DNA of 64,000 nt from Rickettsia typhi (lineage in GTDB: Bacteria > Pseudomonadota > Alphaproteobacteria > Rickettsiales > UBA1997): assembly GCA_945862075.1 (NCBI GenBank), contig CAMAWV010000001.1, positions 2,721-66,720 of the forward strand. Direction: 5' to 3'. This document shows, one piece after another, positions 10,731-59,400 of this stretch. The position numbers and the translations under genes are program-made. Position 1 is the stretch's first letter; the number at the start of each line of letters is the position of its first letter. The notes under the pieces were generated by a model, which made no database searches, was not told the DNA's origin, and saw only the letters and a program-made list of their open reading frames with translations.

Positions 10731-11969
10731 TTAATTTTCTAAACCAAAAGCATCGTGTAAAATTCGCACTGCTAATTCACCATATTCTTTTGCTATTAAA
10801 ACCGAAATTTTAATTTCAGAAGTAGAAATTAGCAACAAATTTATCCCTTTATCTGCTAGTGTTTTAAACATAGTATAGGCAACACCAGAATGGCTAATCA
10901 TGCCAACACCAATTACCGAAATTTTAGCAATATTATCGTCTATTTTTAACTCGATAAAATTAACTTCGTTTTTAATATTAGCAATAGCTATTTTTGCCCT
11001 TTCTAGCTCATCTTTGCTAATAGTAAAAGTGATATCTATTTTTTTTCCATCGGCACTGATATTTTGCACAATCATATCAACATTAACACTTTGATTTGCT
11101 AATGCACCAAAAATAGTTGCCGATAAACCTGGATGATCTGGCATTTGTAAAAGAGTTACTCTAACATCGGTTTTACAGTAGCTAATGCCTGTAATTAATT
11201 GTTTTTCCATAATTTCTTGATTATTATTAACTAAAATTGTTCCTGAATTTTCATTAACTTCTTCAAAAGAAGAAAGTACTCTTACTTTAACGTTATGAGC
11301 CATTGCCATTGCTACCGAGCGAGTTTGTAAAACTTTTGAACCACTATATGCCATTTCAAGCATTTCTTCATAGGTTACTTTATTGAGTTTTTTTGCTTTA
11401 TCAGTGATTCGAGGATCAGTAGTGTAAACACCGTCAACATCAGTGTAAATATCGCAAATATCAGCATTTACTGCAGCTGCTATTGCCACCGCAGAAGTAT
11501 CGGAGCCTCCTCTACCAAGAGTGGTTATTTTATTAGAAGCAACATGCATGCCTTGAAAACCAGCTATTACAACTACCTGATATTGTTTTAAACTTTCTAA
11601 CAAAACAATACCATTTATTTCATCGATTCTAGCTTTACTATGCAAATTATCAGTGGTAAGGGGAATTTGCCAACCCAAGAAAGACCTAGCTTTATAACCC
11701 ATAGATTGAAGTTGTAGAGCCAACAAACCACAAGTAATTTGTTCGCCTGTTGCAACAATAGAATCGTATTCACTTAAAGCAGAATTATCAGTAAGATTAG
11801 AAACTTGATTGCAATAATCAACCAATTGATTAGTAACTCCAGACATTGCCGAAACCACAACAATTACTTGATTATTTTTTTTTAATTCAGCTTCAACTTT
11901 TTTGGCAACATTTTTGATTCGCTCGATATTGCCCACCGAAGTTCCGCCAAATTTCTGAACTACCAACAT
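10731..11969 (-). CDS. lysC: Aspartate kinase
   Basis: MLVVQKFGGTSVGNIERI, TLGRGGSDTSAVAIAAA and two C-terminal ACT-like regions; 412 aa. Confidence 0.95.
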   Translation of the reverse strand: MLVVQKFGGTSVGNIERIKNVAKKVEAELKKNNQVIVVVSAMSGVTNQLVDYCNQVSNLTDNSALSEYDSIVATGEQITCGLLALQLQSMGYKARSFLGWQIPLTTDNLHSKARIDEINGIVLLESLKQYQVVVIAGFQGMHVASNKITTLGRGGSDTSAVAIAAAVNADICDIYTDVDGVYTTDPRITDKAKKLNKVTYEEMLEMAYSGSKVLQTRSVAMAMAHNVKVRVLSSFEEVNENSGTILVNNNQEIMEKQLITGISYCKTDVRVTLLQMPDHPGLSATIFGALANQSVNVDMIVQNISADGKKIDITFTISKDELERAKIAIANIKNEVNFIELKIDDNIAKISVIGVGMISHSGVAYTMFKTLADKGINLLLISTSEIKISVLIAKEYGELAVRILHDAFGLEN

Positions 11970-32092: not shown

Positions 32093-33166
32093 ATGAAAAT
32101 TTTTTTACTTATCATAATAATTATTGCTTTGGTGGTGCTTACTTCTTGCATTTTTTTTAACGAAAAAAATTATTATCATGGCAATATTTCAAACCATTTT
32201 GATGGCAAAAAATTTCATAATTTAAATTCTGAAGGGGCAAAAAGTTTTTCTTCTTATCATAAATCTAAGCAAGAATATATTAAAACTCACGGCAAAACAC
32301 AATGGCCACAGCAAGAAATTGAAATTAAAACCATTGTTCCAACTCAAAAAGTTGATAACAATCAAATTATTAGCACTTTTGTAGGGCATTCTACTTTTTT
32401 AATTCAGTTTGCTGGGCTAAATATTTTAACCGATCCTATTTGGTCAAAAAGAGCAAGCCCTATTAGCTTTGCTGGGCCAAAAAGAGCCAAAAAACCAGGC
32501 ATTAATTTTGCCGATTTACCTAAAATTGATGTAGTATTAATTAGCCATTCTCATTACGACCATCTCGATTTACCAACTGTTAAACAACTTCAAAAACATT
32601 CTAATCCACATTTTTTTGTAGGCTTGGGCATGTGTTATTTTTTAAACAACCTAAAAAATTTAAAATTAAACTGCACCGAACTTGATTGGGGGCAGTCTTT
32701 TATGTTTAATCAAAATTTGCAAATTAGTTTTTTACCTACCAAACACTGGTCAAAACGCTATTTATTTGGCAATAATGCTACTTTATGGGGTGCTTTTGCC
32801 ATGCAGGCAAAACTTAATAATGAGCAGTTAGCAAAAATTTATTTTGCTGGCGACACAGGTTTTGACAATCATTTTCTAGAAGCTGGTAAGCAATTTAATG
32901 GTTTTGATTTAGCTTTTTTACCAATCGGAGCCTACAAGCCAGAAAACTTTATGAGCAAACACCATACTAGTCCGCAAGAGGCGGTGCTTGCAATGCAACA
33001 ATTACAAGCAAAACAAGCTGTGGCTATGCATTTTGAAACTTTTCCTATGGCTTCCGATAATTTTTTTGACCCCGCTTCTGATTTAAAACAAGCCTTACAA
33101 CAGCAAAACATCAGCGAAAAACAATTTTTAACTCTACAACCCGGACAACAATTAATTTTACCATGA
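32093..33166 (+). CDS. Membrane-anchored or exported MBL-fold metallo-hydrolase (NAPE-PLD-like)
   Basis: N-terminal hydrophobic segment, then VGHSTFLIQ, LISHSHYDHLD (HxHxDH) and the later FAGDTG and HF motifs. 357 aa. Confidence 0.78.
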   Translation: MKIFLLIIIIIALVVLTSCIFFNEKNYYHGNISNHFDGKKFHNLNSEGAKSFSSYHKSKQEYIKTHGKTQWPQQEIEIKTIVPTQKVDNNQIISTFVGHSTFLIQFAGLNILTDPIWSKRASPISFAGPKRAKKPGINFADLPKIDVVLISHSHYDHLDLPTVKQLQKHSNPHFFVGLGMCYFLNNLKNLKLNCTELDWGQSFMFNQNLQISFLPTKHWSKRYLFGNNATLWGAFAMQAKLNNEQLAKIYFAGDTGFDNHFLEAGKQFNGFDLAFLPIGAYKPENFMSKHHTSPQEAVLAMQQLQAKQAVAMHFETFPMASDNFFDPASDLKQALQQQNISEKQFLTLQPGQQLILP

Positions 33167-34008
33167 AAATAGCTTTTCAAGGTATTGCTGGAGCCAACTC
33201 ACATTTGGCTTGCTTGCAGTTTTACCCACAACTTATCACTCAAAATTATTCAACATTTGAAGAAGTTTTTTTAGCAGTTCAAAATGATGAAGTACATTAT
33301 GGTTTAGTGCCTCTTGAAAACTCTTATGCTGGCAGAGTTGCCGAAATTCATCATTTACTGCAAAAATATCAGCTAAACATTATTGCCGAACATTTTTTTG
33401 TCGTCAATCATCAGTTAGCAGGAGCAAAAGGGGCATCAATCAGCAATATCACCAAGGTAATTTCGCATCCGCAAGCTTTAATGCAGTGCCAAAATTTTTT
33501 ACAAAAACTTAACCTAGAAAAACAAGAAAGCATCAACACTGCAGTTTCTGCCGAGATGGTTTTTTTACATCATCAACAAACTGGACAAAAAAATTTAGCA
33601 GCAATTTGTTCGGATTTTGCTATTGAAAAATATAATTTACAATTGTTAGCAAAAAACATTCAAGATGCCAAAGATCAAAATATAACAATTTTTATTGTCA
33701 TATCTAAAGCTCAACCAAACATTGATTTTGTTATAAAACCTACTATCACATCGTTATTTTTTACTATCAGAAATATTCCAGGGGCACTTTACAAAGCTTT
33801 AGGAGGTTTTGCCACTAATAATGTAAGCATTGTCAAGCTCGAAAGTTATATTCCAGGAGGGTTTTCAAAGCAGGCTCGATTTTTTATTAGCATTAACGGG
33901 CATCCGCAACAAAACAATGTTCGATTAGCACTTGAAGAACTTGGTTTTTTTTCGCAAGAAGTAAAGTTTCTTGGCATTTATTATGCTAGCCCCACTAGAA
34001 AAGAATAG
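33163..34008 (+). CDS. pheA: Prephenate dehydratase
   Basis: IAFQGIAGANSH, GLVPLENSYAGRV and the C-terminal ACT region containing ESYIP. ATGA overlap with the upstream gene. 281 aa. Confidence 0.9.
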   Translation: MKIAFQGIAGANSHLACLQFYPQLITQNYSTFEEVFLAVQNDEVHYGLVPLENSYAGRVAEIHHLLQKYQLNIIAEHFFVVNHQLAGAKGASISNITKVISHPQALMQCQNFLQKLNLEKQESINTAVSAEMVFLHHQQTGQKNLAAICSDFAIEKYNLQLLAKNIQDAKDQNITIFIVISKAQPNIDFVIKPTITSLFFTIRNIPGALYKALGGFATNNVSIVKLESYIPGGFSKQARFFISINGHPQQNNVRLALEELGFFSQEVKFLGIYYASPTRKE

Positions 34009-35045: not shown

Positions 35046-35408
35046 TTATATTTTTTGAGGATCTGCACCTGTACATTGACCACTATCGTTGCCAGTAATT
35101 CCAGAATAAAGGCTAGGAGCACCAAAAATAACAGCCACACCCAAACAAACACCAATAATTGTTTTGATCTCTATTTTACCAAGTAAAAAACCAGCACCAA
35201 CTGCCATAACCATAAGTGAAGCAATAATTTTTATTGGGGTACCTCTTAATATTGCAACACCGTTACAAAGAACTTTGGAGACACTATTTTCCTTATCTCG
35301 AATAATAACAATCTGAGCATTTGCTGTTGAAAAAAGTGGCAATAATAACAAAATACTAAAAACCATCAACAAAAAATAGCCCTTAATTTTTAAAAAAATG
35401 TTTAACAT
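35046..35408 (-). CDS. virB2: TrbC/VirB2-family type IV secretion pilin-like protein
   Basis: 120 aa. A long signal peptide ends in ANA|Q (LLLLPLFSTANAQ). A short polar segment follows, then two hydrophobic helices separated by a small basic loop (IIASLMVMAVGAGFLLGKIEIKTIIGVCLGVAVIFGA). This is the VirB2/TrbC pilin layout. Confidence 0.68.
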   Translation of the reverse strand: MLNIFLKIKGYFLLMVFSILLLLPLFSTANAQIVIIRDKENSVSKVLCNGVAILRGTPIKIIASLMVMAVGAGFLLGKIEIKTIIGVCLGVAVIFGAPSLYSGITGNDSGQCTGADPQKI

Positions 35409-35566: not shown

Positions 35567-36136
35567 ATGAAAACCAATGCTAATTCTATTAAAATAGGCA
35601 ATGTTCTTGAGTTTCAAGGTCAATTATGGAAGGTTCTTAAAAGAGAACATGTTAAACCCGGTAAAGGTGGAGCCTACATTCAGATTGAAATGAAAAACAT
35701 CCAAACTGGCAATAAAACCAATACCAGATTTGCCTCAAGCGAAGATGTTGATATTGCTTTTGTTGAGCAACAAAATTTGTTGTTTCAATATTTTGAGCAA
35801 AATAATTTGGTTGCCATGAACATGGAAACCTTTGAAACTTTTGAATTTCCCAAAAATTTAGTTGGCGATGCTCTACCTTTTTTAAGCGAAGGCATGAATA
35901 TTCGAGTTGAATACTGCAATCAAAAACCTATAAGCATTTTTCTGCCAGAGCAAGCGAATGCTGTTATTGCTCAAGCCGATGCCGTGGTAAAAGGACAAAC
36001 CGCCGCCGCCTCTTACAAGCCAGCCATCTTAGAAAATGGAGTAAAAATTATGGTTCCTCCTTTTATTGAATCTGGCGAAGAAATAATTGTTAACACCACC
36101 GATTTTAATTATGTTAGTAGAGCCAAAAACAACTAG
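35567..36136 (+). CDS. efp: Elongation factor P
   Basis: IKIGNVLEF...LWKVLKREHVKPGKGGAYIQIEMKNI contains the conserved KPGKG loop. 189 aa. Confidence 0.95.
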   Translation: MKTNANSIKIGNVLEFQGQLWKVLKREHVKPGKGGAYIQIEMKNIQTGNKTNTRFASSEDVDIAFVEQQNLLFQYFEQNNLVAMNMETFETFEFPKNLVGDALPFLSEGMNIRVEYCNQKPISIFLPEQANAVIAQADAVVKGQTAAASYKPAILENGVKIMVPPFIESGEEIIVNTTDFNYVSRAKNN

Positions 36137-36935
36137 CAATTTTTTTTATAAAATGAGCGGTCTTGATAACGATTTTATCATTATCGACAACCGTATACAT
36201 CACTATAATTTTTTATACCCACAAATTAGTCAAATTTGTCATAAATTATGCTATCGCAAAAACATTGGTTGCGATCAGCTCATTATTTTAAATAATAGCC
36301 AAATTGCCGATGTTGCTATTGATATTTTTAACTCAGATGGTTCAAAATCTGGAGCTTGTGGCAATGCCACCAGATGTGTCGCTTCTTTAATTTTTGCCGA
36401 AAAACAATCAACAAACATTACTATTGCAGTTGGTGAAAAAATTTTACCTTGCACTAAAATAGATCATCAAAACATTGCGGTTAATATGGGAAAAGCAAAT
36501 ATTCTGCATCAAAACTTAGTGTTTCACCAGTTAAATTTTATGGCTCTTGATGTTGGCAACCCGCATGCTGTTTGTTTTGTTGATAAACCATTGCTAGAAA
36601 ATCTTTTTTATACCATCGGTCCTGTGGTTGAAAATAACTTGCAATATTTTCCAAATAAAACTAATGTTGAATTCGCTCAAATTATTAATCGCCATACTAT
36701 TGCAGTGCGAGTTTGGGAAAGAGGAGTTGGCGAAACCTCGGCTTGTGGCTCTGGAGCTTGTGCGGTAGCAGTTGCTGCTATTACTCAAAATTTAGTTGAT
36801 AACACCGAAATTACCATTATTTTTGCTGGTGGTAAGCTAACCATAAACTGGCAAAAACACGAAAATATTATCATGACTGGCGGTTGTCAAAAAATTTTTA
36901 CTGGTTTTTTTGATAACAATTTTTTAACACATTAA
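36111..36935 (+). CDS. dapF: Diaminopimelate epimerase
   Basis: FYKMSGLDNDFIIIDNR, the catalytic NSDGSKSGACGNATRC and GVGETSACGSGA. The start is uncertain: ATG at 36111 (preferred), TTG at 36087 or ATG at 36153. It overlaps the end of efp. Confidence 0.88.
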   Translation: MLVEPKTTSNFFYKMSGLDNDFIIIDNRIHHYNFLYPQISQICHKLCYRKNIGCDQLIILNNSQIADVAIDIFNSDGSKSGACGNATRCVASLIFAEKQSTNITIAVGEKILPCTKIDHQNIAVNMGKANILHQNLVFHQLNFMALDVGNPHAVCFVDKPLLENLFYTIGPVVENNLQYFPNKTNVEFAQIINRHTIAVRVWERGVGETSACGSGACAVAVAAITQNLVDNTEITIIFAGGKLTINWQKHENIIMTGGCQKIFTGFFDNNFLTH

Positions 36936-37017: not shown

Positions 37018-40000
37018 GTGTTTCAATCTCTTAAAAAATATATCATTATTTTACTATCTGTTTTGTTGCTAGTTTTTTTTGTTTGTGAAAAAGCAAAAGC
37101 AGCCATGGTTGGTGGTTGCACCGACGATCCTGGAGACGGATCTATAATGGTTACCGCTAAACCTGCTACTATTTTTTCTAATGGCTCCGATGATTTATGG
37201 CAAACACAACTTTCTGATTGGCAAGAAACTCCCTATTATACAAATGGCGAAGATATCATAATAAATATTGCCATAAGAAACTCAGGCTATATCAATGCTC
37301 ATGGCGATAATGACAATAAGCTAAAATATCCTTGTAACATTTGCTCAAAAATTGTTAAATACAATACAAATGGTTCAATAGCCTATCAAACACCTAATTG
37401 CATTTGTGGTCCAAAAATTTATGTTCCACCCATACCTCAAGTTCAATCTTTTAGATACTGGCCTGGCTCAAAAGAAATATTTAAGCCAATCGAAACCATA
37501 AAACCAGAATGCGAAATAATTCTCGGTTACCCAGAAAAGGCACATTATGGCATAATAGATAATAACCAAAGAATTGCCTGTAGAAAAGGTTCTAGCAATG
37601 AGATAATAGAAATATCCAGTAATCATGTAGATATTGTGTCACCATTATTAAAAACCGATATAAATTCACAAGAATACACTTGTATCCCAATGGAATGGGC
37701 ACTAAATTTAGGCACTAACCATCCTAATTTTATTGCATCAAATTCTAAAATTACAACTTTCTTAAATCAAAATTACATAGATAAAGGTAAATACTATAGT
37801 AGGGCAACCCACTTACTTACTACAGATTTTAAAAAAATTCCCGATGAAAACGGTCAATCTGGTTATGAAATTGTGCATTTTCCTATAAATTACTATGAAA
37901 AAGAACTAAGTACCACAGAAACAGATCAAGCTAAAATTACCCTACTAAAAGATGTTAATTATCACCATACAAACAGCTGCAATGCTTCAAATGGCTTTAG
38001 TTTATATCTTGGTTTATTTCCAGAAAATTCTGATATGCCCGGATATAACGGCAAAATTTATGCTTATCATCTTTATTCTTTTAACCAAATATGCCGAATT
38101 TATCGCAATGGAATTTGTGAAAATGCAGTAACTCAATTTAAATTATCAAAATCAAATCTAGATTCTATATTGCCAAGTTCTTTTTTAGATAATAATAACA
38201 ATCCAATATCTATACCACATGGATATAAAATAAAATTTAAAATCTACGATAATTTTTACACATCTAACGAAGTGCGAGATCTATACAATGTCACTATAAC
38301 AAGTGGCATAGAAACTCAAAACTATGCAAAACCAAATCAAGATGAAGGGCTTTTTACTAATGTAAAATCTAAAATTGATGCAATTTTACAAGGTGCCCAA
38401 AGCTATAATTTTAATATTTCCAATATCAATTATGCTTCTTTATTTATATCCCCTGTTTATGCCGCAGATATAATTGAAGAAGCCACAATAGAAAATGCTA
38501 AAAAAAATGGTTTGATACGTGTTACTTACGAAAATTTTATAGTAAAAAATATAACCATTATTAGATATACATTAATTTTATTTTTGATGTTTTATGCCAT
38601 AAGCTACTTAATGGGATTATCAGAAATAAATCAAAAAGAATTAATACTGCGCCTATTCAAAATAGCGATAGTTCTTGCTTTTCTCGATCCTGCTTTAATT
38701 GATTTAACAACAAAAACTAAAATTTCACTAGATCCTAGCAAAACAATTCAAAAACAATATTCATTTCAAACAACTGCCACTTTGGGTTTTTTATTTTATC
38801 AAAAATATATTATTAATACTGCCATAGGAGGTCTAAACGATCTTATAGCAATAATTACTAATTTTTGCAAAGCTCTTAATCTAGACAGTGCTTCCGCTAT
38901 GCAAACAGAAGTTTCTTTGAGTAACAATGTTAATTTTGCCTATTTCGATAAAATATTAGAAAAAATCTTTTCAATAAAAACAGTAGGAGCAATAGTAAGT
39001 GCCATTTTCACTAAATGGCTAATTGGAGCGGTGCTTTTAGTGGTATTTTTATATTTTTTAGTAAAAACAATTTTTAAACTCCTAGTGACCTATATTTTAA
39101 ATTGGTTGCAAATTATCTTAGCATTGTCTTTAGGACCTATTTTCTTTTTATTTTTACTTTTTTCAAAAACGAAAGGGTTTTTCACTAAATGGATTGCTTT
39201 TACATTTGCCAGAGCCCTAGATATAGTTATTTTGGTAGCTCTTACCTTTCCGTTTATTGGCATCATATATGTTGATTTATTAGCTATTATTGGCGAAGAA
39301 TCTTGTTTAAGAGCAATTGGCCCTTCTTTTTTAAGACTTGAAGTATGGATTCAAAACGATAATCGTAACTCAGACTTAAATAATTTTTTTAGCTATATAT
39401 TTGCGTTAGCAAAAGATATTGCTTTAGTTTACATGATAAACCTAATCGCTTCTTATGCTCCTGAAATTTCTGGTAAAATTATTAATATTGCCGATAATCA
39501 AAACTCCGCAGGAAACTCAAAAGCAGCATCTAACATAGCAGCACAAACCACTGCTCAAGCCTTAAGTACCATAGCTTCTGGTATAAAATTTGCCAATTCT
39601 TCTTATGTTGGCGGTATGGCAAAATCTTATGTCAAACAAGGAGCTCTTGGCTTAAGCAACTTTGTTGGAGCAACTCGTGTTGCAACATTTGCCAAAAATA
39701 CCGCATTGAATCTTGGAAACCAGTTATACGAAGGCTTAACACTTAGAAATGCCGCTCAAATTCTTTTAGGCAAAGAAACCGCTGAAGCTATTTTTGGCAA
39801 AAAAAATACTACCAATACTGGCAGAGATGGCGGTGGTTCTGATGGCGGTAGCGGTGGTTCTGATGGTGGTAGCGGTGGTTCTGATGGTGGTAGCGGTGGT
39901 TCTGGCGGTGCTTTTGCTAGCAGTAGAACTAGTGCCTCTGGTAGCACTCCTGCTGATGGTAGCGGTGTTCCTGGCGGTGCTTTTGCTGGTGGTGCTCCTG

Positions 40001-51082: not shown

Positions 51083-54000
51083 ATGCCTGGCAAAATCAAA
51101 AATTCATTGCTAATAACTCTTATTGTTTTGCTTATTTTATGTGCTTTACCAATTTATTTTGTCGTAAATTATCAAAAGCAATTTAATACACAGGCAACAG
51201 CATCAGCAACAACACCTAATGTTTTAGCTGTTAACAAAGCTGAGACTAACCATGACAACGGTGGCGATTATTTTGAATATCAAAAAACAACAGATGATCC
51301 TTTTTATAGTAATACAATACCTAGCGGTACCGCAATATCTCAAAACTTTTTCTTACGCAAAGGACAATCCTTATTGTTTTATAAACATGCAATAACAAGT
51401 TCAGATAATAATTGTGGAGATTTAACTAGATTAACAGTAACAACCACTCCTCAACCAGCAGTTTTGTGCAAAGGAACTTATCCAGCCACTAGGCCAAATT
51501 CACAATGCATTGATTTTGTTGAAATTTGTGAGTTCAAAAATTCTGGTGGTTCGTTGCAATATAAAATTAAACAACAAGAATCTAATATAGATTGCATCAG
51601 TATTACTAAAATTTGCCTGCCAAGTGTAAGTGAAAAATGCCCTGTTAGTTCTACTACATATTCTGATGCTTATAAATGCATAGATAATACTGGTGCTACT
51701 TGCTCTAGCACTTTATGCCAAGTTAATTTTCCTACCGTTACTGTTTCTACCGGTGCGAATCTTGTTGTTCCGCAATGTTCTTCGCAAACATTGCAAACAA
51801 AAACAGCACAAGAAATCTTATTTTCTAGTTACAATTGTAGTAGCGATCTTACATTATGCCCAACAGCAAGAGATATAGCAGATCTAGTTAGAAATTTCTC
51901 AAGTCTAAAAACAGATCCCACACAAGCGCCACAATTTGCAACAGTAACCCCTCCTGCCTCTACATGTGAAAATGCATTAAAGTCAGCAATTCAACAATCA
52001 GACTTAATTCAAATAACAGCTCAAAACAACGATGCATGCTATGATTTAACCAATTATACTGGCCAAGTAGCAAATATTCCTCCAGCAGAAAACTATGCAG
52101 AATATTTAGGTTTTTTAAATAACGGTAAAAATGCTAAACCAATCGCTCCTATATCTAGTCTTTCTGCTGATAAATATTTTGGTAACCTCGATTACAGTGT
52201 CTCAAAAACCATATTTATCAACGAAAAAGGTGAGCTTAGCAACTTACCAGAATTTCAAGTAAGTAGCGATGGTTTGCAAATGAAAATGCTGTTTGTTAAT
52301 AACACAGATTTAAGCTCAACACCAACAGCAAACACGCTACCAGCTGCAGGTTTACAAACCAATATCAGTTTTCACCAAAATCAAACTTATAAAAACGGTC
52401 AAATGTTAAAAGTGGTTTTATGTAAAGAAGATGATGCGGCTTATCTAGATGATAACCAAAAATATAAATTTAACGAAAAATACGAAACAAAATGCGAAAA
52501 TTATTTTTTACCACCAGCTAATATTGAAGAAAATCTCATCAAAACTTACAATTCTTCTTTATCTAGTAGAGTTATGACATCTATGCCAAATTCCCTATCA
52601 GATGCCGATTATTTTACACAAAACACTACGGAACGATTTACAGATTTTACGGATTTTATTCATAAAACAGATAGCATTAAAGTTGTTAATCAAAGTGTAG
52701 CCGATAGACCAGTTTCTAGTGGTGTTTATAATAATGACAACCAAACACTTCGTTCACCTTATATGTTTGATAAAAATGGTTGGTTAAAATTAATGGTTGC
52801 CAACGAACCAAGATTACTCAAAGAATCAACATTAAGAAGCACCTCAATAAATATAAACAAACCAATTTGTCATAATTACGATAACAATTTTTATTGTCAC
52901 AACTCTTATGCAACACTATTTCCGCCAGAAGGAACTCCTAAATTAGATGATATCAAAAATTGGGAATACAAACAACTAAAACATGATTTACGATTAAGAC
53001 TCGCCTTTCAGATTGACGACCCCGATATTAATAAAAAGGAAATTACAACAACCTACTATCCAAATGCCGTCCTTGACAGTACATCACCTAGTATCGCCGC
53101 AGGCAATGAAGCATATAACAATAACACTGGTAAATACGAAGTAACAGTAAAAGTAACCAACCCTGCAAGAAAAGCTCAATTAGAAGTCATGACAAGATTA
53201 AACAATATCGTAAATGCTTTGTCCTTAACTACTCTATTTAAATTTGATAAACCAATTGGAGAGGAAAAAGATCAATCAAATGCTGAAAAAAAAAGTATGT
53301 TTAGTTATTTAATTACAAATAGTAAATTGAAATCTGTAGTAAAACTTTCGGCAGTTTTAATGTTAATGATTTTTGCTTTAATGTATTTAATGGGTTTAAG
53401 TAAGCTTGATCATCAAACTCTAGTCTCTATAATTCTAAAACTCTCTTTTGTTTTAGGTTTATTTAGCTCAGATGCTTGGCAACTCTATCATGATATTTTT
53501 GTCGAAAGAATTATCGAAATATTTAACGATATAAGCTACAAAACACTTACCATTTTATCGCCCCAAGATATTATTGATTCTCAAACAATACCAACTTTTG
53601 ATAAAGCAAACATAGCTACTTATTTTTATCAATCAATAGATGTTATTACCATGATTTTTAATCAAAAAAATCATTTCAAAATTATGGCAATATTTTTCAG
53701 TTATAGCTATGGTTTTGTTTATGTTTTTATTATTTATTACGGATTTTATATATATTTATTTGCTTCCGCCAATGCTATTTTAATGTTTATTTTAGCAAAA
53801 ATCATCATGATATTACTAATTAATTTATTGCCTTTGTTTTTATTGTGTTTGTTCTTTAAAACAACACAAAAAATGCTCGATAATTGGTTTTCACTGATAC
53901 TTGGCTATGGTTTTCAACAAATTTTTATTATTATTGCTGTTGCCTTTTTTAATATCATGATTGTATATATTTTAAAAATGATTTTAGGTTATAAAATATG

Positions 54001-56491
54001 CTGGGATTCTGTTTTAAAAATTAACTCTGGCAGTTTAGGTTATGGACTTCCTTTTAACGATATTATACTGTTTAAATTTTGGCAAGTTGAAGATTCTGAA
54101 AATGGCAACTATATTCCTTCTTTATTTCATATACTTTATTTTTTAATTTTGGTTTATGCCATGCAACACTTTATTAATTTCGCCGCTGGTTTAGGATCTA
54201 GAATAGCTGGTGGAGTAAGTGTTGAAGGTATTGCTAATGCTATTAAAGCTGATTTAACTGGTAACATCGCCTCTAAAATGGCACTAAAAGCTGTTAATAA
54301 ATTAACCAAAGATATGAAAAATCGCCTAATTGATAAAATTTCTTTTGGGTATAGCGGGGAATTGGCCGATAAAAGAATCCAACAAGCTAACGAGAGAATA
54401 AATGATCACAGAGAAGCTTTTCAAGATGTTCAAAAAGAATTAAATACATATCAATCATCAAGTGAATTTTTAGCATTAAGTGACGAAGAAAAAGATATTG
54501 TGTTGAAATCAAAAGCAAATCAGCTAGCTGAAGAGTCTGGCTATGGTAACTATGCAAATTTAATAAAATCCGCTAATCAATCAAAACAATCTTCCTCAAC
54601 CACACTTCCTGGAATGCTATTTGATGTTACTGGATCTCAAGGTCAAAAATATATTGGTAAAGCAACTAATGCCATTACTGGCAGAAACTTAGTAACTGGC
54701 CTTGCAAATGATACTGGTGATTTTAACGAAGCAAACTTACTAGGTATTAACAGAAGAATAAATTCAAAAGATGTTGTAGAAGCTCAAAAAGTTATTGATA
54801 GAAAGATAGGAGAATTAGAAAACATAGTCCTCACACAACCAAACTTAACCCCGGATCAACAAACTGCAATAAGAAACAGAATAGAAAATTTAAAAATACA
54901 AAAAGAATCAATTAAACTCAAGCAAACCACTTGGTCATCTATGGAAAAATTAAGATCTTTTACTAACAAACATAGCATCGAAGCAACAATAGGTGTAGCT
55001 ACAATTGGTGCGGTTGGTGGAGTTTTAGGTGGTGCGACAGGTGCATTAGTTGGTGCGGTTGGTGGAGTTTTAGGTGGATCTAAAGGTGGAGCTGTTGCTG
55101 GACATGATATCGCTGTTAGTATTAAAACAAATGTTGGTTCTTTGGTGGGTGTTTTGCCAGGTGGTGCGGTAGGTGGTGCGCTAGGTGGTGCGCTAGGTAA
55201 ATTATTTGTTGGGTTAGGTGCTATAGCAGGTGGTTTCATAGGCTTAGCTGTTGGCATAACTAGAGGCCCAGTAAGTGGCATAACTAGAGGCACAGTAAGT
55301 GGCACATATGCAGGAGTTACTACAGGTATTAGATTTAGCAATGCTAATATTCGTAACATCAATCCTGCTTATTTAAGAGCTAAGATTCGTAACACCAATC
55401 TTGCTTATTTAAGAACAGGTTTCGTTGCCAATGCAAAGAATTTAAGAACAGGTTTCGTTGCCAATGCAAAGAAACTGGCACAATTTACAGAAAATGAATC
55501 CATAACTTCAAAAACATTAATTGAAAATACTTCTAGCAAAATCGGAAGAGCTACAGGTTCAGCCGCAAGAGCTGCAGGTTCAGCCGCAATAGCTACAGGT
55601 TCAGCTATTATGAACATCGCAAGAGCTGCAAGTAATCCTACTAGCAACATCGCAAGAGCTGTAAGTTCAGCTAGTAGGAACATCGCAAGAGCTGCAAGTT
55701 CAGCTAGTAGCAATATAAAGCGTTTTGGCCATTCAGCTATCTCCCGAGGGTCTTTTGCCTATAATGTTAGCCGAAATTTTGTCGCAAGTGCTTTTGTTAA
55801 AATCGCCCAAAACGATACAAGTGCTTTTGTTAAAATCGCCCAAAACGATGCAAAATATAATTTGCAACAAAAACTAAAAAGTAATCCTAAAAATATTTCT
55901 ACAGATAAACAAGAAGAAATAATTGATAATTTTATTGAACAAATTAAGCCTTATTTATCAGGTTCCAATCTAAATAAATTAAACAGCCTATTGCAAGTAA
56001 CAGATTATCAAGATCGTAATCTTGGCAAAATTCACAATATTATTGAAAACAACCTAGCAAAACTCAACCAAGATAAAACACTTTTTAATTTATTTGTAAA
56101 AATAGCTCAACAAGAAAAGAAAAAACGTTATGAAAGCAATGATATTGGAAATTTAACTTCTTCTACTGTTGGTGCGACTTTGGTTGGAGCTGGTTATGCG
56201 ACTGGATATACAATGCAATCAATACAAAATTATCGAGAAAAATCAGCTTTACAACATAAACAACACAAAGCATTACAAACTATTGATACTTTAATGAGTA
56301 CTTTAACAGAATCTTCAAGGGAAAAAATAAAAACACTTACAAAAGAAATAGAAAAGCCACATTCTCAAAATATAAATGGGTTAATCAAAGATGCTGTACG
56401 CGAAGTAACAACAAACGATATCACAACACAATATACAGATAAAGCCAAACTTTTACTTGCTTTACAAGAATATGCTAAAACCATAAATTAA
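51083..56491 (+). CDS. virB6: Giant VirB6/TrbL-like type IV secretion membrane protein (1802 aa)
   Basis: N-terminal anchor SLLITLIVLLILCALPIYFVV and a ~720-aa Cys-rich N-domain. The polytopic core is about aa 751-1042 (nt ~53335-54210), with LSAVLMLMIFALMYLMGLSKLDHQ and LPLFLLCLFFKTTQKMLDNWFSL. The C-terminal ~750 aa contains glycine-zipper segments and many short tandem duplications. Confidence 0.75.
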   Translation: MPGKIKNSLLITLIVLLILCALPIYFVVNYQKQFNTQATASATTPNVLAVNKAETNHDNGGDYFEYQKTTDDPFYSNTIPSGTAISQNFFLRKGQSLLFYKHAITSSDNNCGDLTRLTVTTTPQPAVLCKGTYPATRPNSQCIDFVEICEFKNSGGSLQYKIKQQESNIDCISITKICLPSVSEKCPVSSTTYSDAYKCIDNTGATCSSTLCQVNFPTVTVSTGANLVVPQCSSQTLQTKTAQEILFSSYNCSSDLTLCPTARDIADLVRNFSSLKTDPTQAPQFATVTPPASTCENALKSAIQQSDLIQITAQNNDACYDLTNYTGQVANIPPAENYAEYLGFLNNGKNAKPIAPISSLSADKYFGNLDYSVSKTIFINEKGELSNLPEFQVSSDGLQMKMLFVNNTDLSSTPTANTLPAAGLQTNISFHQNQTYKNGQMLKVVLCKEDDAAYLDDNQKYKFNEKYETKCENYFLPPANIEENLIKTYNSSLSSRVMTSMPNSLSDADYFTQNTTERFTDFTDFIHKTDSIKVVNQSVADRPVSSGVYNNDNQTLRSPYMFDKNGWLKLMVANEPRLLKESTLRSTSININKPICHNYDNNFYCHNSYATLFPPEGTPKLDDIKNWEYKQLKHDLRLRLAFQIDDPDINKKEITTTYYPNAVLDSTSPSIAAGNEAYNNNTGKYEVTVKVTNPARKAQLEVMTRLNNIVNALSLTTLFKFDKPIGEEKDQSNAEKKSMFSYLITNSKLKSVVKLSAVLMLMIFALMYLMGLSKLDHQTLVSIILKLSFVLGLFSSDAWQLYHDIFVERIIEIFNDISYKTLTILSPQDIIDSQTIPTFDKANIATYFYQSIDVITMIFNQKNHFKIMAIFFSYSYGFVYVFIIYYGFYIYLFASANAILMFILAKIIMILLINLLPLFLLCLFFKTTQKMLDNWFSLILGYGFQQIFIIIAVAFFNIMIVYILKMILGYKICWDSVLKINSGSLGYGLPFNDIILFKFWQVEDSENGNYIPSLFHILYFLILVYAMQHFINFAAGLGSRIAGGVSVEGIANAIKADLTGNIASKMALKAVNKLTKDMKNRLIDKISFGYSGELADKRIQQANERINDHREAFQDVQKELNTYQSSSEFLALSDEEKDIVLKSKANQLAEESGYGNYANLIKSANQSKQSSSTTLPGMLFDVTGSQGQKYIGKATNAITGRNLVTGLANDTGDFNEANLLGINRRINSKDVVEAQKVIDRKIGELENIVLTQPNLTPDQQTAIRNRIENLKIQKESIKLKQTTWSSMEKLRSFTNKHSIEATIGVATIGAVGGVLGGATGALVGAVGGVLGGSKGGAVAGHDIAVSIKTNVGSLVGVLPGGAVGGALGGALGKLFVGLGAIAGGFIGLAVGITRGPVSGITRGTVSGTYAGVTTGIRFSNANIRNINPAYLRAKIRNTNLAYLRTGFVANAKNLRTGFVANAKKLAQFTENESITSKTLIENTSSKIGRATGSAARAAGSAAIATGSAIMNIARAASNPTSNIARAVSSASRNIARAASSASSNIKRFGHSAISRGSFAYNVSRNFVASAFVKIAQNDTSAFVKIAQNDAKYNLQQKLKSNPKNISTDKQEEIIDNFIEQIKPYLSGSNLNKLNSLLQVTDYQDRNLGKIHNIIENNLAKLNQDKTLFNLFVKIAQQEKKKRYESNDIGNLTSSTVGATLVGAGYATGYTMQSIQNYREKSALQHKQHKALQTIDTLMSTLTESSREKIKTLTKEIEKPHSQNINGLIKDAVREVTTNDITTQYTDKAKLLLALQEYAKTIN
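55007..55852 (+). repeat. Patchwork of at least seven different short in-frame tandem duplications inside the C-terminal extension of the second giant gene
   Basis: 45-bp period, two copies of ggtgcggttggtggagttttaggtgg (55007, 55052). 24 bp x2 (55253-55300, GITRGxVS). 36 bp x2 (55346-55417, xIRNxNxAYLRx). 33 bp x2 (55418-55483, GFVANAKxL..). 21 bp x3 (55547-55609, xAxGSAx). 33 bp x3 (55613-55711, NIARAxSxxxx). 33 bp x2 (55787-55852, SAFVKIAQNDx). Confidence 0.88.
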
Positions 56492-56492
56492 C

Positions 56493-59400
56493 ATGAATTT
56501 TTTTAAAAATAACATAAAATTACTAAAAAAAATCTTAGCAATATTTTTTATGCTGTGTTTAATATCTTGCAAAGATCAAGGTTGTACCGAAGGTGATGAT
56601 TTTGGCGAATTCACTATTCAAAATTTACAATTTCCACCTTATGCAGGAGGAATAAAAAAACGTTTAGATTATAATAAAACAATATGCAATGACTACAACA
56701 AAGAATTATTAAAACTGATAAATGTAGATTTATGTAACGATGGCACCATGATAAACTGCTCTTCTAGTACAAGAGGCAACGATCAAAACTGCACTCTTAA
56801 TCTTGGAACAACTTGCAATAATGATTTGGTAAATCTTTATACACTGCAAAATAAATGTTATAGTACCTATGCTAAAAAACAAACCTCTGACGGTGGTAAA
56901 AGCTATGTTTTTGCTACACATGATGATGAAAATAATCCAGACTTTTATTTATTCCCAGATGCCGATATTTCGGTAAAAATCCGAGGAGAAATTACTATAA
57001 ATAGATCATCACCAAATACAGCTATAACTATTCAAAAAAATTCGCCATCAGAACTGCTAAAGGTAAATCAAAATGAGAAAATAGATGTTTTTTTAAAAAA
57101 TGATGTCAGTAATATTTATTTTGATTTTTATAAGGCTATCCCAACAGTTAAAGGAATCTGTGATACTGATTTTTTGGACCTACATATACCAAATAATCAA
57201 CAAGATTTTTACACAATGCAAGAAAATGTTAATAATGATTACCACAACGCAACAAATGGCATACAAAACAAACTAAAAACAATTATTGTTTATAATATAC
57301 CTTATGTTGGTGAAACAACTTTTATCGCCCCTGATATTAACACGTTGGAGTCTGATAACGGTAAATGGATAGTAAATAAAAACAACGAAGAATTAAAAAT
57401 AGATAATGCAAGCTCCACAAAAAAAAGAAAACTTGGTACAGGTTTTGTTGTAGCAACAACAGAACTTAACGGTTTTGGTTTGCAAACGATGAGTAGCGAC
57501 GAATATTTATTAGCAAGACAAGATATAGTAGATTATTACAAAACCTCTTCTCCTTGCTCTAATTTTACTTATAGGGGAAGTTATATTAACAATGTTGTTG
57601 GTTCTTCTCTTGTTGGAACCAGATCAGTTTCTTCAGGCGTGACTTTTGGTGCTAATTCTATTTTAAAAGCAGGATCTACTGCCAGTTTTCTTGTTCTTCC
57701 TACAGGGTCACCCCCCCCCAGCTGCACATTTAACCCAATGTTAAGTGTAACACAAGATATTTCTGGCTTTGTAGAATTTGGCTTTGCTTGTTTGCAAAAT
57801 ACTAGTCCTTGCACACAATCTAGTTTACCTAGCACAATTACAGTTAGTATAGTAAGTTCGGAAGGTGATTTTGAAGTATTTCCTTCTTTATCTCCAGCTA
57901 TTGAAAAACAAATAAATATTCCAGGTGGTAAAATTTTTGTTAAAAAAGGTAGTACTTTACTTATTCATACAACACCATCAAGCTCAACAACCTCAACAAC
58001 TATTGCAAATCTTAAAACAAATGGTCTTTATGTCAAAACCACTCCTCGACCAGCAATTTACTGTTCAAAACAAAAATTTCGAATACAAAAAAACACTATG
58101 TGCATTAATTCTAATCCAGAATTTTGCATAATTGATCCTCAATTTTGTACATCAGTTCAAAAAGGCAGTACTACTGCAACTCATAAATGCGAATGTGCTA
58201 GTAACAAATTTTTTCAAACACAATCATGGTCTCCAGCATTTACAAAGGATTCATCATCGCCAGCTTATAAAATTAATCTAGATCAACTGAAAAATGACTA
58301 TTGTAGCGATCAAACAAAATTGGATGAGTGCAAAGCATGCCTAATAGAACTACAAAATAGCCCCGGATTGTCTAACACAAATAATATTCAAAAAACACTA
58401 TATGATACCACAAAATCTGAAAATGTTTGTTTTGATCTAGAAGAGATTAGAAACAGAATAAGTGATGCAACAAAAATTATTGATGACATCCAGATCGAAC
58501 CAAAGAAAAACGATCTAGATTGGATCATGGAAAAAATATTAAACACAAAAATTAAAATTTTACCTTATTTTTCAGATAACTCTTATGGAGTTTTGCCAAA
58601 ACCATCTTTGTCTAATTTAAAGCTTCCTATTCCTACTACCGTCACTGCCCATGCTGATGTTTGCAATCAATCACGACAACTTCAAACCACCATAAAAAGC
58701 AAATTTAATGGTAAAATAGAATTATATATTGCTGATAATGATGAGGTTACAAACACAAATTATATACCATCAACAACAGAAAAATTTCGGATCACTACAA
58801 ATAATCAATTCACTTTACGAGATGGTGCTGGTTTAAAAATTAGCTTGAAAAATATTACAAATAAATCAACAGGCGATACTACTCGATATGATTACAATAA
58901 TAGTTGCGATTATTTAATTGGAAATTCTGCATCTTCCTCCCCGTCTTGCCAAGATTTATATACTCTAAAAAATGGTAATTTAATGCGAAATAGCATCCAA
59001 TACAGCATTAATCCTCTTAATGTATGTATAAAAAACGACTCCAACCTTTCTTATAACCCATTCGCAGGTGCTTATCAAGAAATATTTTGCTATAAAAAAA
59101 CTTCATCAGAAGAAGTAAAAAATATGGGCTTAAAGTTTGAGCTAGACACAACAGGTGACACAAAAAATATTTTTGTTAACAATTGCTACAAATCATCAGG
59201 TACGATAACTGAAAACTGCCAAATTACTTGTCCGAGTCCGTCGAGTGGGTCGTCGACATGTAATATGTGCAATGCAATGAAAATTGTTAATCCGAGCTTC
59301 GACTCTCCAACACCAAACAACAATATTGGAATCAATTCAAGCGATTACTACACTTGCATAGGAAAAGAGGAAATATCTAAAGCGATTTCAGGTAGTTATA

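What the first reader, a model, noticed from the sequence alone, without database searches (positions are those of the whole stretch)
39832..39903. The Gly/Ser repeat of giant gene 1 is close to the reverse complement of the polyproline repeat of giant gene 3
Seen: the reverse complement of 39832-39903 reads ...gaaccaccgctaccaccatca gaaccaccgctaccaccatca gaaccaccgctaccgccatca.... The sense strand at 62601-62660 reads gagccaccgttaccgccagagctaccacca (x2). The 18-mers gaRccaccgYtaccRcca agree at 15-16 of 18 positions. In line with this, the antisense ORF 39756-40232 translates as ...EPPLPPSEPPLPPSEPPLPPSEPPP. That is almost the sense translation of the gene-3 tail (SEPPLPPELPPEPPLPPE). The antisense of the gene-3 tail in turn encodes GGSSGGNGGS. 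Known: GGN and NCC codon complementarity makes Gly-rich and Pro-rich coding partly interconvertible between strands. Inference: either a shared GC-rich repeat cassette was captured in opposite orientations in two paralogs and is read as a flexible GS linker in one and a PPII tail in the other, or this is a by-product of codon complementarity. These are also the only strongly GC-rich islands I noticed in the window.
Basis: seen in the sequence. Interest (0 to 1): 0.55.

Follow-up and report, generated by a model that had tools for sequence, protein, structure and literature searches.

The report
Gly/Pro repeat mirror match is codon complementarity
Two short GC-rich repeats in two giant secretion-system (VirB6-like) genes of a freshwater Rickettsiales bacterium do look like mirror images. 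The likeness is what glycine (GGN) and proline (CCN) codons always give on opposite strands, and each repeat most likely arose on its own inside its own gene, so the finding is ordinary.

Summary
The reverse complement of 39832-39903 matches 62601-62660 at 16/18, 19/21 and 23/30 positions, and the best gapped alignment is 22/25. The antisense translations are as quoted.

The match carries no information beyond codon content. Shuffling the codon order within each region gives an equal or better match in 70-89% of trials. The reverse complement of gene 3's own Gly-rich stretch scores almost the same (16.0 against 17.5). The shared degenerate 18-mer occurs in more than 120 unrelated metagenome contigs, read mostly as GG[S/N]GGS and six times as EPPLPP.

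Orthologs point to separate, in-place origins. The case is strong for gene 1 and weaker for gene 3.
- **Gene 1:** syntenic orthologs at 71% and 56% identity carry a Gly/Ala/Pro array at the same site with the same codon choices. The GGSGGSD unit differs by 2 nt from the neighbouring DGSGVPGG unit.
- **Gene 3:** the Pro-rich tail exists only in near-identical strains. A 57% ortholog has LPPD (TTG CCG CCA GAT) at the aligned spot and a different repeat of its own.

The three giant genes are extended VirB6/TrbL paralogs, a class already known for variable C-terminal repeats. One mild oddity remains: the tail uses codons that are rare in this genome (CCG, GAG, CTA).

The parts
37018..42024 (+). 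Giant gene 1: extended VirB6/TrbL-like protein, 1668 aa. Layout: N-terminal signal or anchor, large Cys-containing N-domain, polytopic core at about aa 514-759, then a long hydrophilic C-terminal extension.
   Evidence: Pfam TrbL scores 24.1 bits, just under the 25.9 cutoff. BLASTP to the gene 3 core gives E = 1e-24. The 96% ortholog is named 'type IV secretory pathway VirB6-like protein' by JGI.
39830..39904 (+). 21-nt tandem repeat GGTGGTTCTGATGGYGGTAGC, 3.6 copies, encoding (DGGSGGS)n.
   Evidence: TRF: period 21, 98% matches, score 143. It is present only in the window and in the 96% ortholog L003.
39938..40161 (+). Gly/Ala/Pro-rich array (DGSGVPGGAFAGGAPAGG units; periods 15, 48 and 63) directly after the GS repeat. 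It is the parent array from which the GS unit derives.
   Evidence: TRF. Whole-unit indels of 21, 6, 93 and 18 nt separate the window from L003, and the last GS unit differs by 2 nt from the DGSGVPGG unit. Arrays sit at the same site in the syntenic orthologs L009 and L010.
39756..40232 (-). Antisense ORF of 158 aa. It is an artefact of stop-free GC-rich low-complexity sequence, not a gene.
   Evidence: Translation. Two to three antisense frames are open at once across the array in the window, L003, L009 and L010.
51083..56491 (+). Giant gene 2: extended VirB6/TrbL-like protein, 1802 aa, with many tandem repeats in its C-terminal part (55007-55853).
   Evidence: Pfam TrbL 49.6 bits. BLASTP to gene 3 gives E = 3e-50. 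TRF.
56493..62744 (+). Giant gene 3: extended VirB6/TrbL-like protein, 2083 aa. It has a lipoprotein-like N-terminus (LISC), a Cys-rich N-domain of about 1100 aa, the TrbL core at aa 1123-1327, a K-rich stretch, a G/A/V-rich stretch and the Pro-rich tail.
   Evidence: Pfam TrbL 74.4 bits. Nine orthologs at 42-100% identity. Alignment A1.
62599..62729 (+). Pro-rich C-terminal tail SEPPLPPELPPEPPLPPELPPELQPELPSPPEEPPPPMPPPPE. A degenerate 12-nt unit CCG CCA GAG CTA (PPEL) underlies a 30-nt repeat of 2.2 copies.
   Evidence: TRF periods 12, 30 and 42. Codons: Pro CCA 14, CCG 10, CCT 0; Glu GAG 8 of 11; Leu CTA 4 of 7. Apart from the window's own protein (P0001), it is present only in the two close strains P0002 and P0020.
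61602..62153 (+). Gly/Ala/Val-rich stretches of gene 3, with tandem repeats at 61602-61660, 61786-61868 and 62087-62153. They serve as an internal control: the reverse complement of 61600-61870 matches the tail nearly as well as the gene 1 repeat does.
   Evidence: TRF. Local alignment score is 16.0, against 17.5 for the gene 1 GS repeat.

Best explanation
The two GC-rich islands are independent low-complexity tandem repeats. Each most likely grew in place by replication slippage, inside the fast-evolving hydrophilic C-terminal extension of a different extended VirB6 (TrbL) paralog of a freshwater Rickettsiales bacterium.

**Why they mirror each other.** Their reverse-complement likeness follows from the genetic code. 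GGT GGT on one strand is ACC ACC on the other, which reads CCA CC one base out of frame. GGC corresponds to CCG, AGC to the CTA in P-L-P, and TCT to GAx. So any (G-G-x)n repeat written in GGT/GGC mirrors any (x-P-P)n repeat written in CCA/CCG.

**Probable roles (inferred, not shown).**
- The Gly/Ser/Ala/Pro array of gene 1 is a flexible disordered spacer between the membrane core and a C-terminal region of about 620 aa rich in K, L, Q and E.
- The gene 3 tail is a polyproline-II-type terminal segment with PPLP and PPPP motifs. It may serve as a rigid arm or a docking site for proline-recognition domains on an exposed C-terminus.
For: **Codon content explains the match.**
- Synonymous shuffling within each region reaches 16/18 or better in 86% of trials. 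Full codon-order shuffling does so in 89% of trials, with a mean best of 16.3/18.
- The gapped local score is 17.5, against a shuffle mean of 19.4 (P = 0.70).

**The gene 1 repeat is not a special partner.**
- The reverse complements of the gene 1 G/A/P array and of gene 3's own Gly-rich stretch both score 16.0 against the tail.
- An unrelated small ORF at 46747-46869 gives 16/18 on the same strand.

**The 18-mer is commonplace.**
- In 94 of the 120 the longest open frame lies on the opposite strand, almost always reading GG[S/N]GGS. Six read EPPLPP on the same strand.

**Gene 1: local origin.**
- Syntenic orthologs (TrbC, EF-P, DapF, gene 1, 125-aa ORF) at 71% and 56% identity carry a G/A/P array at the same site, right after KETAEAIFGKK.
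- Those arrays use the same GGT/GGC/GCT/CCT/AGC codons.
- The GS unit is 2 nt away from the adjacent DGSGVPGG unit, and array copy number differs between strains.

**Gene 3: local origin.**
- Apart from the window's own protein (P0001), the tail occurs only in close strains P0002 and P0020. It is absent from all orthologs at 57% identity or below.
- The 57% ortholog has TTG CCG CCA GAT ATA GCG GCA GAA (LPPDIAAE) where MAFFT places the window's LPPELPPE. It also has its own unrelated 24-nt repeat.

**Codon choice.** CCG/CCA mixed pairs are over-used in Pro-Pro dipeptides of this clade: 5/17 in the window (P = 0.006) and 8/38 in related loci (P = 0.004), against 7% expected.

**No cassette behaviour.**
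- No other copy of either unit (3 mismatches or fewer) exists in the window or in ten related loci.
- The periods differ: 21 nt against 12/30 nt.
- The genes align only in the membrane core.

**Literature.** Strain-variable C-terminal tandem repeats are a described property of Rickettsiales VirB6 paralogs, with evidence of surface exposure (PMC3556328, PMC7648143).
Against: - **Residual signal.** If only the peptides are fixed and codons are drawn from the genome's usage, the match sits in the upper tail. This holds even with the observed GG and PP codon-pair usage. P(16/18 or better) is 0.24-0.27 with independent codons and 0.06-0.08 unit-wise. P(19/21 or better) is 0.03 and 0.005-0.008.
- **What that residue amounts to.** The tail is built from codons that are rare in this genome: CCG 8%, GAG 16%, CTA 11%, and no CCT although CCT makes up 38% of Pro codons. 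Its antisense uses exactly the favoured Gly and Ser codons of gene 1 (GGT, GGC, AGC, TCT).
- **The proposed local seed is weak.** The DNA alignment scores 14, with P = 0.18 for the whole tail and 0.03 for the Pro-rich part alone.
- **No intermediate ortholog.** None between 57% and 89% identity was available.
- **Other limits.** The PP codon-pair counts are small and partly come from orthologous sites. The functional roles of linker and tail are inferred from composition only.
Confidence: 0.88

Rival explanations
1. Inverted capture. After the split from the 57%-identity lineage, a short piece of a Gly/Ser-coding repeat (from gene 1 or from another GGT/GGC-rich stretch) was copied in inverted orientation into the 3' end of gene 3. 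It was then read out of frame as EPPLPP and re-expanded with a new period.
For: - The tail's codons (CCA/CCG only, GAG, CTA) are atypical for the genome. They are the exact complements of the favoured Gly and Ser codons GGT, GGC, TCT and AGC used in gene 1.
- With genome codon usage as the null, the 21-mer statistic gives P = 0.005-0.03.
- The tail is a recent, lineage-specific addition.
Against: - The order of codons adds nothing to the match.
- The periods differ: 21 nt against 12/30 nt.
- There is no flanking similarity and no extra copies.
- The antisense of the tail contains AAC (Asn) and AGC-TCT doublets that gene 1's array lacks.
- Gene 3's own Gly-rich stretch matches nearly as well.
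- CCG-CCA is the clade's usual Pro-Pro spelling, and it is already present at the aligned site of the 57% ortholog.
- The 18-mer arises independently in more than 120 unrelated contigs.
Confidence: 0.06
2. Shared constraint at the nucleic-acid level. Both arrays are kept GC-rich and mutually complementary because the DNA or RNA itself has a role, for example long-range pairing between the two transcripts, or recombination hot spots that drive variation.
For: They are the two strongest GC islands in a 32% GC window. The gene 1 array varies in copy number between strains.
Against: - Complementarity is only 71-77% over 30-41 nt, no better than chance AT-rich pairs in the same window.
- The sites are 22.8 kb apart, in separate transcription units.
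- The GC richness follows directly from the Gly, Pro and Ala content.
- Orthologs keep the amino-acid character of the gene 1 array but not the GS unit, and they lack the Pro tail altogether.
Confidence: 0.02
3. The antisense ORF 39756-40232 is a real overlapping gene that encodes a Pro-rich protein related to the gene 3 tail.
For: It is a 158-aa ORF with an ATG start.
Against: - Two or three antisense frames are open at once across the array in every ortholog examined, as expected for stop-poor GC-rich low-complexity sequence.
- The open stretches end just outside the array.
- The gene callers behind the related contigs did not call it.
Confidence: 0.02

Closest known systems
C-terminal tandem-repeat extensions of Rickettsiales VirB6 paralogs, for example Anaplasma phagocytophilum VirB6-3 and VirB6-4 (PMC3556328, PMC7648143)
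   Same: Multiple VirB6/TrbL paralogs, with giant proteins. A hydrophilic C-terminal extension follows a polytopic core. Lineage-specific tandem repeats in that extension differ between strains.
   Different: The repeats here are tiny (75-220 nt, units of 12-63 nt), against kilobase arrays of 84-405-nt units. The proteins also carry N-terminal Cys-containing domains of 500-1100 aa. The genes are not next to virB3/virB4 in this window. The organism is an uncultured freshwater MAG lineage. Surface exposure is untested.
Extended VirB6 proteins of conjugation systems (F-plasmid TraG, SXT TraG), as discussed in PMC7648143
   Same: A VirB6-like polytopic domain plus a large hydrophilic extension.
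   Different: No sequence similarity outside the TrbL core was tested or seen. There is no conjugative context in the window.
Sense/antisense Gly-Pro coding symmetry, for example GGGGCC/CCCCGG repeats that give Gly- and Pro-containing dipeptide repeats from opposite strands (own knowledge, not checked here)
   Same: GGN and NCC are complementary, so Gly-rich coding repeats always carry a Pro-rich reading on the other strand.
   Different: Here the two readings sit in two different genes at two different loci, and each is read on one strand only.
Pro-rich rigid or docking segments in bacterial envelope and effector proteins: the TonB (EP)n(KP)n spacer (own knowledge) and the Rickettsia RalF 'variable with Pro-rich region' (PMC11077975)
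   Same: A Glu/Pro/Leu-rich polyproline-type segment. [quoted passage not shown]
   Different: No homology was shown. The gene 3 segment is a 48-aa terminal tail, not a spacer between domains. No binding partner is known.

Membership tests
Extended VirB6/TrbL proteins of the Rickettsiales vir homolog (rvh) T4SS | TrbL/VirB6 domain (PF04610) | tested here: met
   Gene 3 scores 74.4 bits and gene 2 scores 49.6 bits, against a cutoff of 25.9. Gene 1 scores 24.1 bits, just below the cutoff, but aligns to the gene 3 core at E = 1e-24.
Extended VirB6/TrbL proteins of the Rickettsiales vir homolog (rvh) T4SS | Polytopic membrane core followed by a long hydrophilic C-terminal extension | tested here: met
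   Kyte-Doolittle segments fall at aa 514-759 in gene 1. In gene 3 only one segment (aa 1245-1294) passes the threshold within the TrbL core (aa 1123-1327). About 900 aa (gene 1) and about 750 aa (gene 3) follow the core. This is a crude hydropathy measure only.
Extended VirB6/TrbL proteins of the Rickettsiales vir homolog (rvh) T4SS | Several VirB6 paralogs per genome in a Rickettsiales organism | tested here: met
   Three paralogs lie in the window, two of them in tandem. Relatives found in GTDB genomes are titled 'MAG: Rickettsiales bacterium'. Multicopy RvhB6 is listed as an rvh hallmark in PMC11077975.
Extended VirB6/TrbL proteins of the Rickettsiales vir homolog (rvh) T4SS | Linkage to other rvh genes (virB3/virB4 upstream of the virB6 cluster) | tested here: not met
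   Genes 2 and 3 lie between glmS and dprA. Gene 1 lies after EF-P and DapF. Only a TrbC/VirB2-like ORF (35046-35408, minus strand) is nearby. The rest of the genome was not available.
Extended VirB6/TrbL proteins of the Rickettsiales vir homolog (rvh) T4SS | Strain-variable tandem repeats in the C-terminal extension | tested here: met
   The gene 1 array differs from the 96% ortholog by whole-unit indels. The gene 3 tail is identical in copy number in three strains.
Shared or mobile repeat cassette present in two orientations | Similarity beyond what the codon content of the two regions gives | tested here: not met
   Codon shuffles reach the observed match in 70-97% of trials, depending on the statistic.
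Shared or mobile repeat cassette present in two orientations | Same unit length, similarity in the flanks, or further copies elsewhere | tested here: not met
   Periods are 21 nt against 12/30 nt. The best alignment stops at 25 nt. No other copies exist in the window or in ten related loci.
Shared or mobile repeat cassette present in two orientations | Orthologs show the unit arriving as a block or flipping orientation | tested here: not met
   The gene 1 array is ancestral at its site. The gene 3 tail has a possible local seed, and no ortholog carries a Gly/Ser tail.
Polyproline-II ligand motifs (PPLP, PxxP or polyPro, recognised by WW, SH3, EVH1 and profilin domains) | Presence of the motifs in an accessible segment | tested here: inconclusive
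   PPLP occurs twice and PPPP twice at the extreme C-terminus. Accessibility, topology and the existence of any partner cannot be tested with these tools.

The most novel reading that the evidence does not exclude
The Pro-rich tail of gene 3 was created recently by inverted duplication of a Gly/Ser-coding repeat. That would be a new protein segment born from the antisense strand of an existing coding repeat, and it would explain the tail's rare-codon make-up (CCG, GAG, CTA and no CCT).
Probability: 0.05. Interest if true: 0.5.

Novelty: new member of a known kind. Interest (0 to 1): 0.1.

Why it matters
It matters little. The mirror likeness of Gly-rich and Pro-rich repeats follows directly from the genetic code, and variable C-terminal repeats in Rickettsiales VirB6 paralogs are already described.

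The work has two uses:
- **A worked control.** Conditioning on codon content removes the signal. One 18-mer was found coding GG[S/N]GGS in most of 120 unrelated contigs and EPPLPP in six others. Such matches should therefore not be taken as evidence of common descent.
- **A record of how these proteins change.** It documents how fast the C-terminal extensions of extended VirB6 proteins change in an uncultured freshwater Rickettsiales lineage. If those extensions are exposed, as reported for Anaplasma, the PPLP/PPPP tail is a candidate contact motif worth testing.

Tried and rejected
1. **Protein search with the last 400 aa of gene 3**, meant to find tail variants on short contigs. It returned nothing, not even the query's own protein. 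Probably low-complexity words filled the 8000-candidate list. This was a dead end.
2. **GTDB genome scan**. It gave four Rickettsiales MAG loci. Two gene 3 orthologs run off their contigs before the C-terminus. One is the already known 57% ortholog and one is a 43% ortholog without a comparable tail. No intermediate was found.
3. **Cluster look-up**. It gave no names or accessions. It yielded one further strain, P0020, with an identical tail.
4. **Conservation of the tail between the window and the 89% ortholog.** I considered reading the zero differences over about 135 nt as a sign of selection. I rejected this because the whole C-terminal third of the gene is 97-100% identical at the DNA level.
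5. **A null model using the clade's GG and PP codon-pair usage**. It raised the probabilities only slightly over the plain genome-usage null, so pair bias alone does not remove the residual rare-codon signal.
6. **The local-seed alignment to L006.** It is suggestive but not significant on its own.
7. **The antisense ORF as a gene.** Rejected.
Full report
**1. What is in the window**

The window is 32.3% GC. It carries three giant ORFs on the + strand: 37018-42024 (1668 aa), 51083-56491 (1802 aa) and 56493-62744 (2083 aa).

All three match Pfam TrbL/VirB6 (PF04610). Genes 2 and 3 score well above the cutoff. Gene 1 falls just below it (24.1 against 25.9 bits), but it aligns to the gene 3 core at 28% identity with E = 1e-24. 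Genes 2 and 3 align over the same core at 30% identity, E = 3e-50. Outside that membrane core the three proteins do not align.

Each protein has the same layout:
- an N-terminal signal or anchor;
- a large N-terminal domain;
- a polytopic core;
- a long hydrophilic C-terminal extension.

Relatives found in GTDB genomes are all titled 'MAG: Rickettsiales bacterium' and come from lake metagenomes. The surrounding genes are ordinary chromosomal genes. These are therefore extended VirB6 paralogs of a freshwater Rickettsiales lineage. Multicopy VirB6 is a listed hallmark of the Rickettsiales rvh secretion system (PMC11077975).

**2. The observation**

It is correct in every detail.

| Item | Result |
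|---|---|
| 39830-39904 | 21-nt repeat, 3.6 copies, 98% matches, encoding DGGSGGS |
| 62599-62664 | 30-nt repeat, 2.2 copies, over a 12-nt CCGCCAGAGCTA periodicity reaching about 62702 |
| Best ungapped match, reverse complement against the tail | 16/18, 18-19/21, 23/30 |
| Best gapped alignment | 22/25 |
| Antisense ORF 39756-40232 | reads ...EPPLPPSEPPLPPSEPPLPPSEPPPS... |
| 100-nt windows reaching 60% GC | only in 39805-40184 and 62556-62757 |
| Weaker GC islands (55-57%) | in Gly/Ala/Val-rich parts of gene 3 |

**3. Is it more than chance?**

*Codon shuffles.* Synonymous codons shuffled within each region reach 16/18 or better in 86% of trials. With the whole codon order shuffled, which destroys the peptide order, the figure is 89%, with a mean best of 16.3/18. 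The observed 30-mer value is below average. With gaps allowed, the observed score of 17.5 is below the codon-shuffle mean of 19.4 (P = 0.70). Given the codons used, any arrangement mirrors as well.

*Internal controls.* The reverse complement of the gene 1 Gly/Ala/Pro array scores 16.0 against the tail. So does the reverse complement of gene 3's own Gly-rich stretch at 61600-61870. A scan of the whole window also finds a 16/18 same-strand match in an unrelated 40-aa ORF at 46747-46869, which spells QPPPN as CAA CCA CCG CCA AAC.

In 94 of the 120 the longest open frame is on the opposite strand and almost always reads GG[S/N]GGS. In six it reads EPPLPP on the same strand. The motif therefore arises repeatedly and independently in both readings.

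*The mechanism is arithmetic.*
- GGT GGT is ACC ACC on the other strand, which is CCA CC one base out of frame.
- GGC gives CCG.
- An AGC between Gly pairs gives CCG CTA CC (P-L-P).
- TCT gives GAx.

**4. The residue**

If only the peptides are fixed and codons are drawn from the genome's usage, the match lies in the upper tail.

| Statistic | Independent codons | Unit-wise |
|---|---|---|
| P(16/18 or better) | 0.24 | 0.06 |
| P(19/21 or better) | 0.026 | 0.005 |

This reflects one fact: the tail is spelled with codons that are rare here.

| Codon | In the tail | Elsewhere in the window |
|---|---|---|
| Pro CCG | 10 of 24 | 8% |
| Pro CCT | 0 of 24 | 38% |
| Glu GAG | 8 of 11 | 16% |
| Leu CTA | 4 of 7 | 11% |

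Part of this is the clade's habit. CCG/CCA mixed pairs make up 5 of 17 Pro-Pro dipeptides elsewhere in the window (P = 0.006) and 8 of 38 in loci from related species (P = 0.004), against 7% expected. A null that uses these pair frequencies moves the probabilities only a little, to 0.27/0.08 for the 18-mer and 0.03/0.008 for the 21-mer.

The rest is most simply a founder effect. One 12-nt unit, CCG CCA GAG CTA, was amplified, so only about four codons were ever chosen independently.

**5. Orthologs, gene 1**

- The 96% ortholog (L003) has the same GS repeat. Its array differs from the window by whole-unit indels of 21, 6, 93 and 18 nt.
- Where the window has GGT GGT TCT GGC GGT GCT TTT GCT, L003 has GGT GTT CCT GGC GGT GCT TTT GCT. 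The GS unit is therefore 2 nt away from the neighbouring DGSGVPGGAFA unit.
- Orthologs at 71% (L009) and 56% (L010) share the synteny TrbC, EF-P, DapF, gene 1, 125-aa ORF.
- Both carry a Gly/Ala/Pro array at the same place, right after KETAEAIFGKK. Both use the same codons: GGT/GGC, GCT, CCT, AGC, as in GAT GGT GGT GTT CCT GCT GGT AGC GGT.
- The array is therefore old at this site, and the GGSGGSD unit is a recent local derivative of it.

**6. Orthologs, gene 3**

- The Pro-rich tail occurs in the window's own protein and two close strains (P0002, P0020), with the same copy number. The whole C-terminal third of the gene is 97-100% identical at the DNA level between the window and the P0002 locus (L001), so this says nothing about selection.
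- All orthologs at 57% identity or below end differently.
- The 57% ortholog (L006) reads ...NLPPDIAAEQLQEKLQ..., and MAFFT places this under the window's LPPELPPE-LQPEL.
- At the DNA level it has TTG CCG CCA GAT ATA GCG GCA GAA against TTA CCG CCA GAG CTA CCG CCA GAG.
- That alignment is only suggestive: P = 0.18 for the whole tail and 0.03 for the Pro-rich part alone.
- L006 also has its own 24-nt repeat (DPVDRTPS, about 3.5 copies). This shows that these tails gain repeats independently in each lineage.

**7. No sign of a cassette**

- Neither unit occurs anywhere else (3 mismatches or fewer) in the window or in ten related loci.
- The periods differ: 21 nt against 12/30 nt.
- The alignment does not extend past 25 nt.
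- The repeats lie at non-homologous positions: aa 937-963, about 180 aa after the core in gene 1, against the last 48 aa of gene 3.
- Both repeats are far younger than the gene duplication.
- The antisense ORF is not a gene. Two or three antisense frames are open at once across the array in every ortholog.

**8. What it most likely is and does**

*Shown:*
- There are two independent tandem repeats in the C-terminal extensions of two VirB6 paralogs.
- One of them varies between strains.
- The mirror likeness is explained by codon content.

*Inferred from composition and from the literature:*
- The gene 1 array is a flexible spacer.
- The gene 3 tail is a polyproline-type terminal segment with PPLP and PPPP motifs.
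- In Anaplasma, the C-terminal repeat regions of VirB6-3 and VirB6-4 vary between strains. Trypsin-shaving data suggest they are surface exposed, and release into the host cell has been proposed (PMC3556328, PMC7648143).
- A docking role for the tail is therefore plausible but untested.

**9. Verdict**

- The one loose end is the rare-codon spelling of the tail. It leaves about a 5% chance of an origin by inversion of a Gly/Ser-coding repeat.
- Novelty: a new member of a known kind, namely extended VirB6 proteins with lineage-specific C-terminal repeats.
- Interest: low.

Noticed in passing
window 46747-46869 (+): An uncalled 40-aa lipoprotein-like ORF (MKQILLKILLILLILNSCGRKSPLQPPPNYKRPSFDNYFE). 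Its ATG overlaps the TGA stop of the argininosuccinate-lyase-like gene (ATGA). It spells PPP as CCA CCG CCA and gives a 16/18 same-strand match to the gene 3 tail.
   Followed up: partly
window 55007-55853 (gene 2, + strand): The C-terminal part of gene 2 is packed with near-perfect tandem repeats of 12 to 66 nt. Examples are a 33-nt unit in 2 copies at 100% (55407-55473) and SAFVKIAQND in 2 copies (55785-55853). This suggests very recent slippage or duplication.
   Followed up: no
window 40601-40646 (gene 1, + strand): A further 15-nt repeat encoding PVQTT in 3 copies, in the C-terminal extension of gene 1.
   Followed up: no
L006 3100-3200 (57% ortholog of gene 3): The ortholog's tail carries its own unrelated 24-nt repeat (GATCCGGTCGACCGAACTCCATCA, DPVDRTPS, about 3.5 copies). 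This shows lineage-specific gain of repeats in these tails.
   Followed up: partly
whole window and loci L005-L010: Codon-pair bias: CCG makes up 8% of Pro codons, but CCG-CCA or CCA-CCG pairs make up 21-29% of Pro-Pro dipeptides, against 7% expected (P about 0.005 in each set). The counts are small and partly come from orthologous sites.
   Followed up: partly
window 42031-42408 (+): A 125-aa ORF 6 nt after gene 1, conserved in the same position in L003, L009 and L010, with no Pfam match. It may be a partner of gene 1.
   Followed up: no
window 35046-35408 (-): A TrbC/VirB2-like ORF (Pfam PF04956 in the orthologous loci). EF-P and DapF separate it from gene 1, and the arrangement is conserved in L003, L009 and L010.
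   Followed up: no
window 4288-5718, 10731-11969, 33163-34008, 36087-36935, 45356-46750: The window encodes class II DAHP synthase, aspartokinase, prephenate dehydratase, DapF and an argininosuccinate-lyase-like enzyme. This is more biosynthesis than in classical host-restricted Rickettsiales, and it fits the aquatic, metabolically richer lineages described in PMC11077975.
   Followed up: no
window 56493-59800 (gene 3 N-terminal domain): The N-terminal domain of about 1100 aa starts with a lipobox-like LISC. It has dozens of invariant Cys residues across nine orthologs (alignment A1) and no Pfam match. It is a large conserved extracytoplasmic module of unknown fold attached to a VirB6 core.
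   Followed up: no
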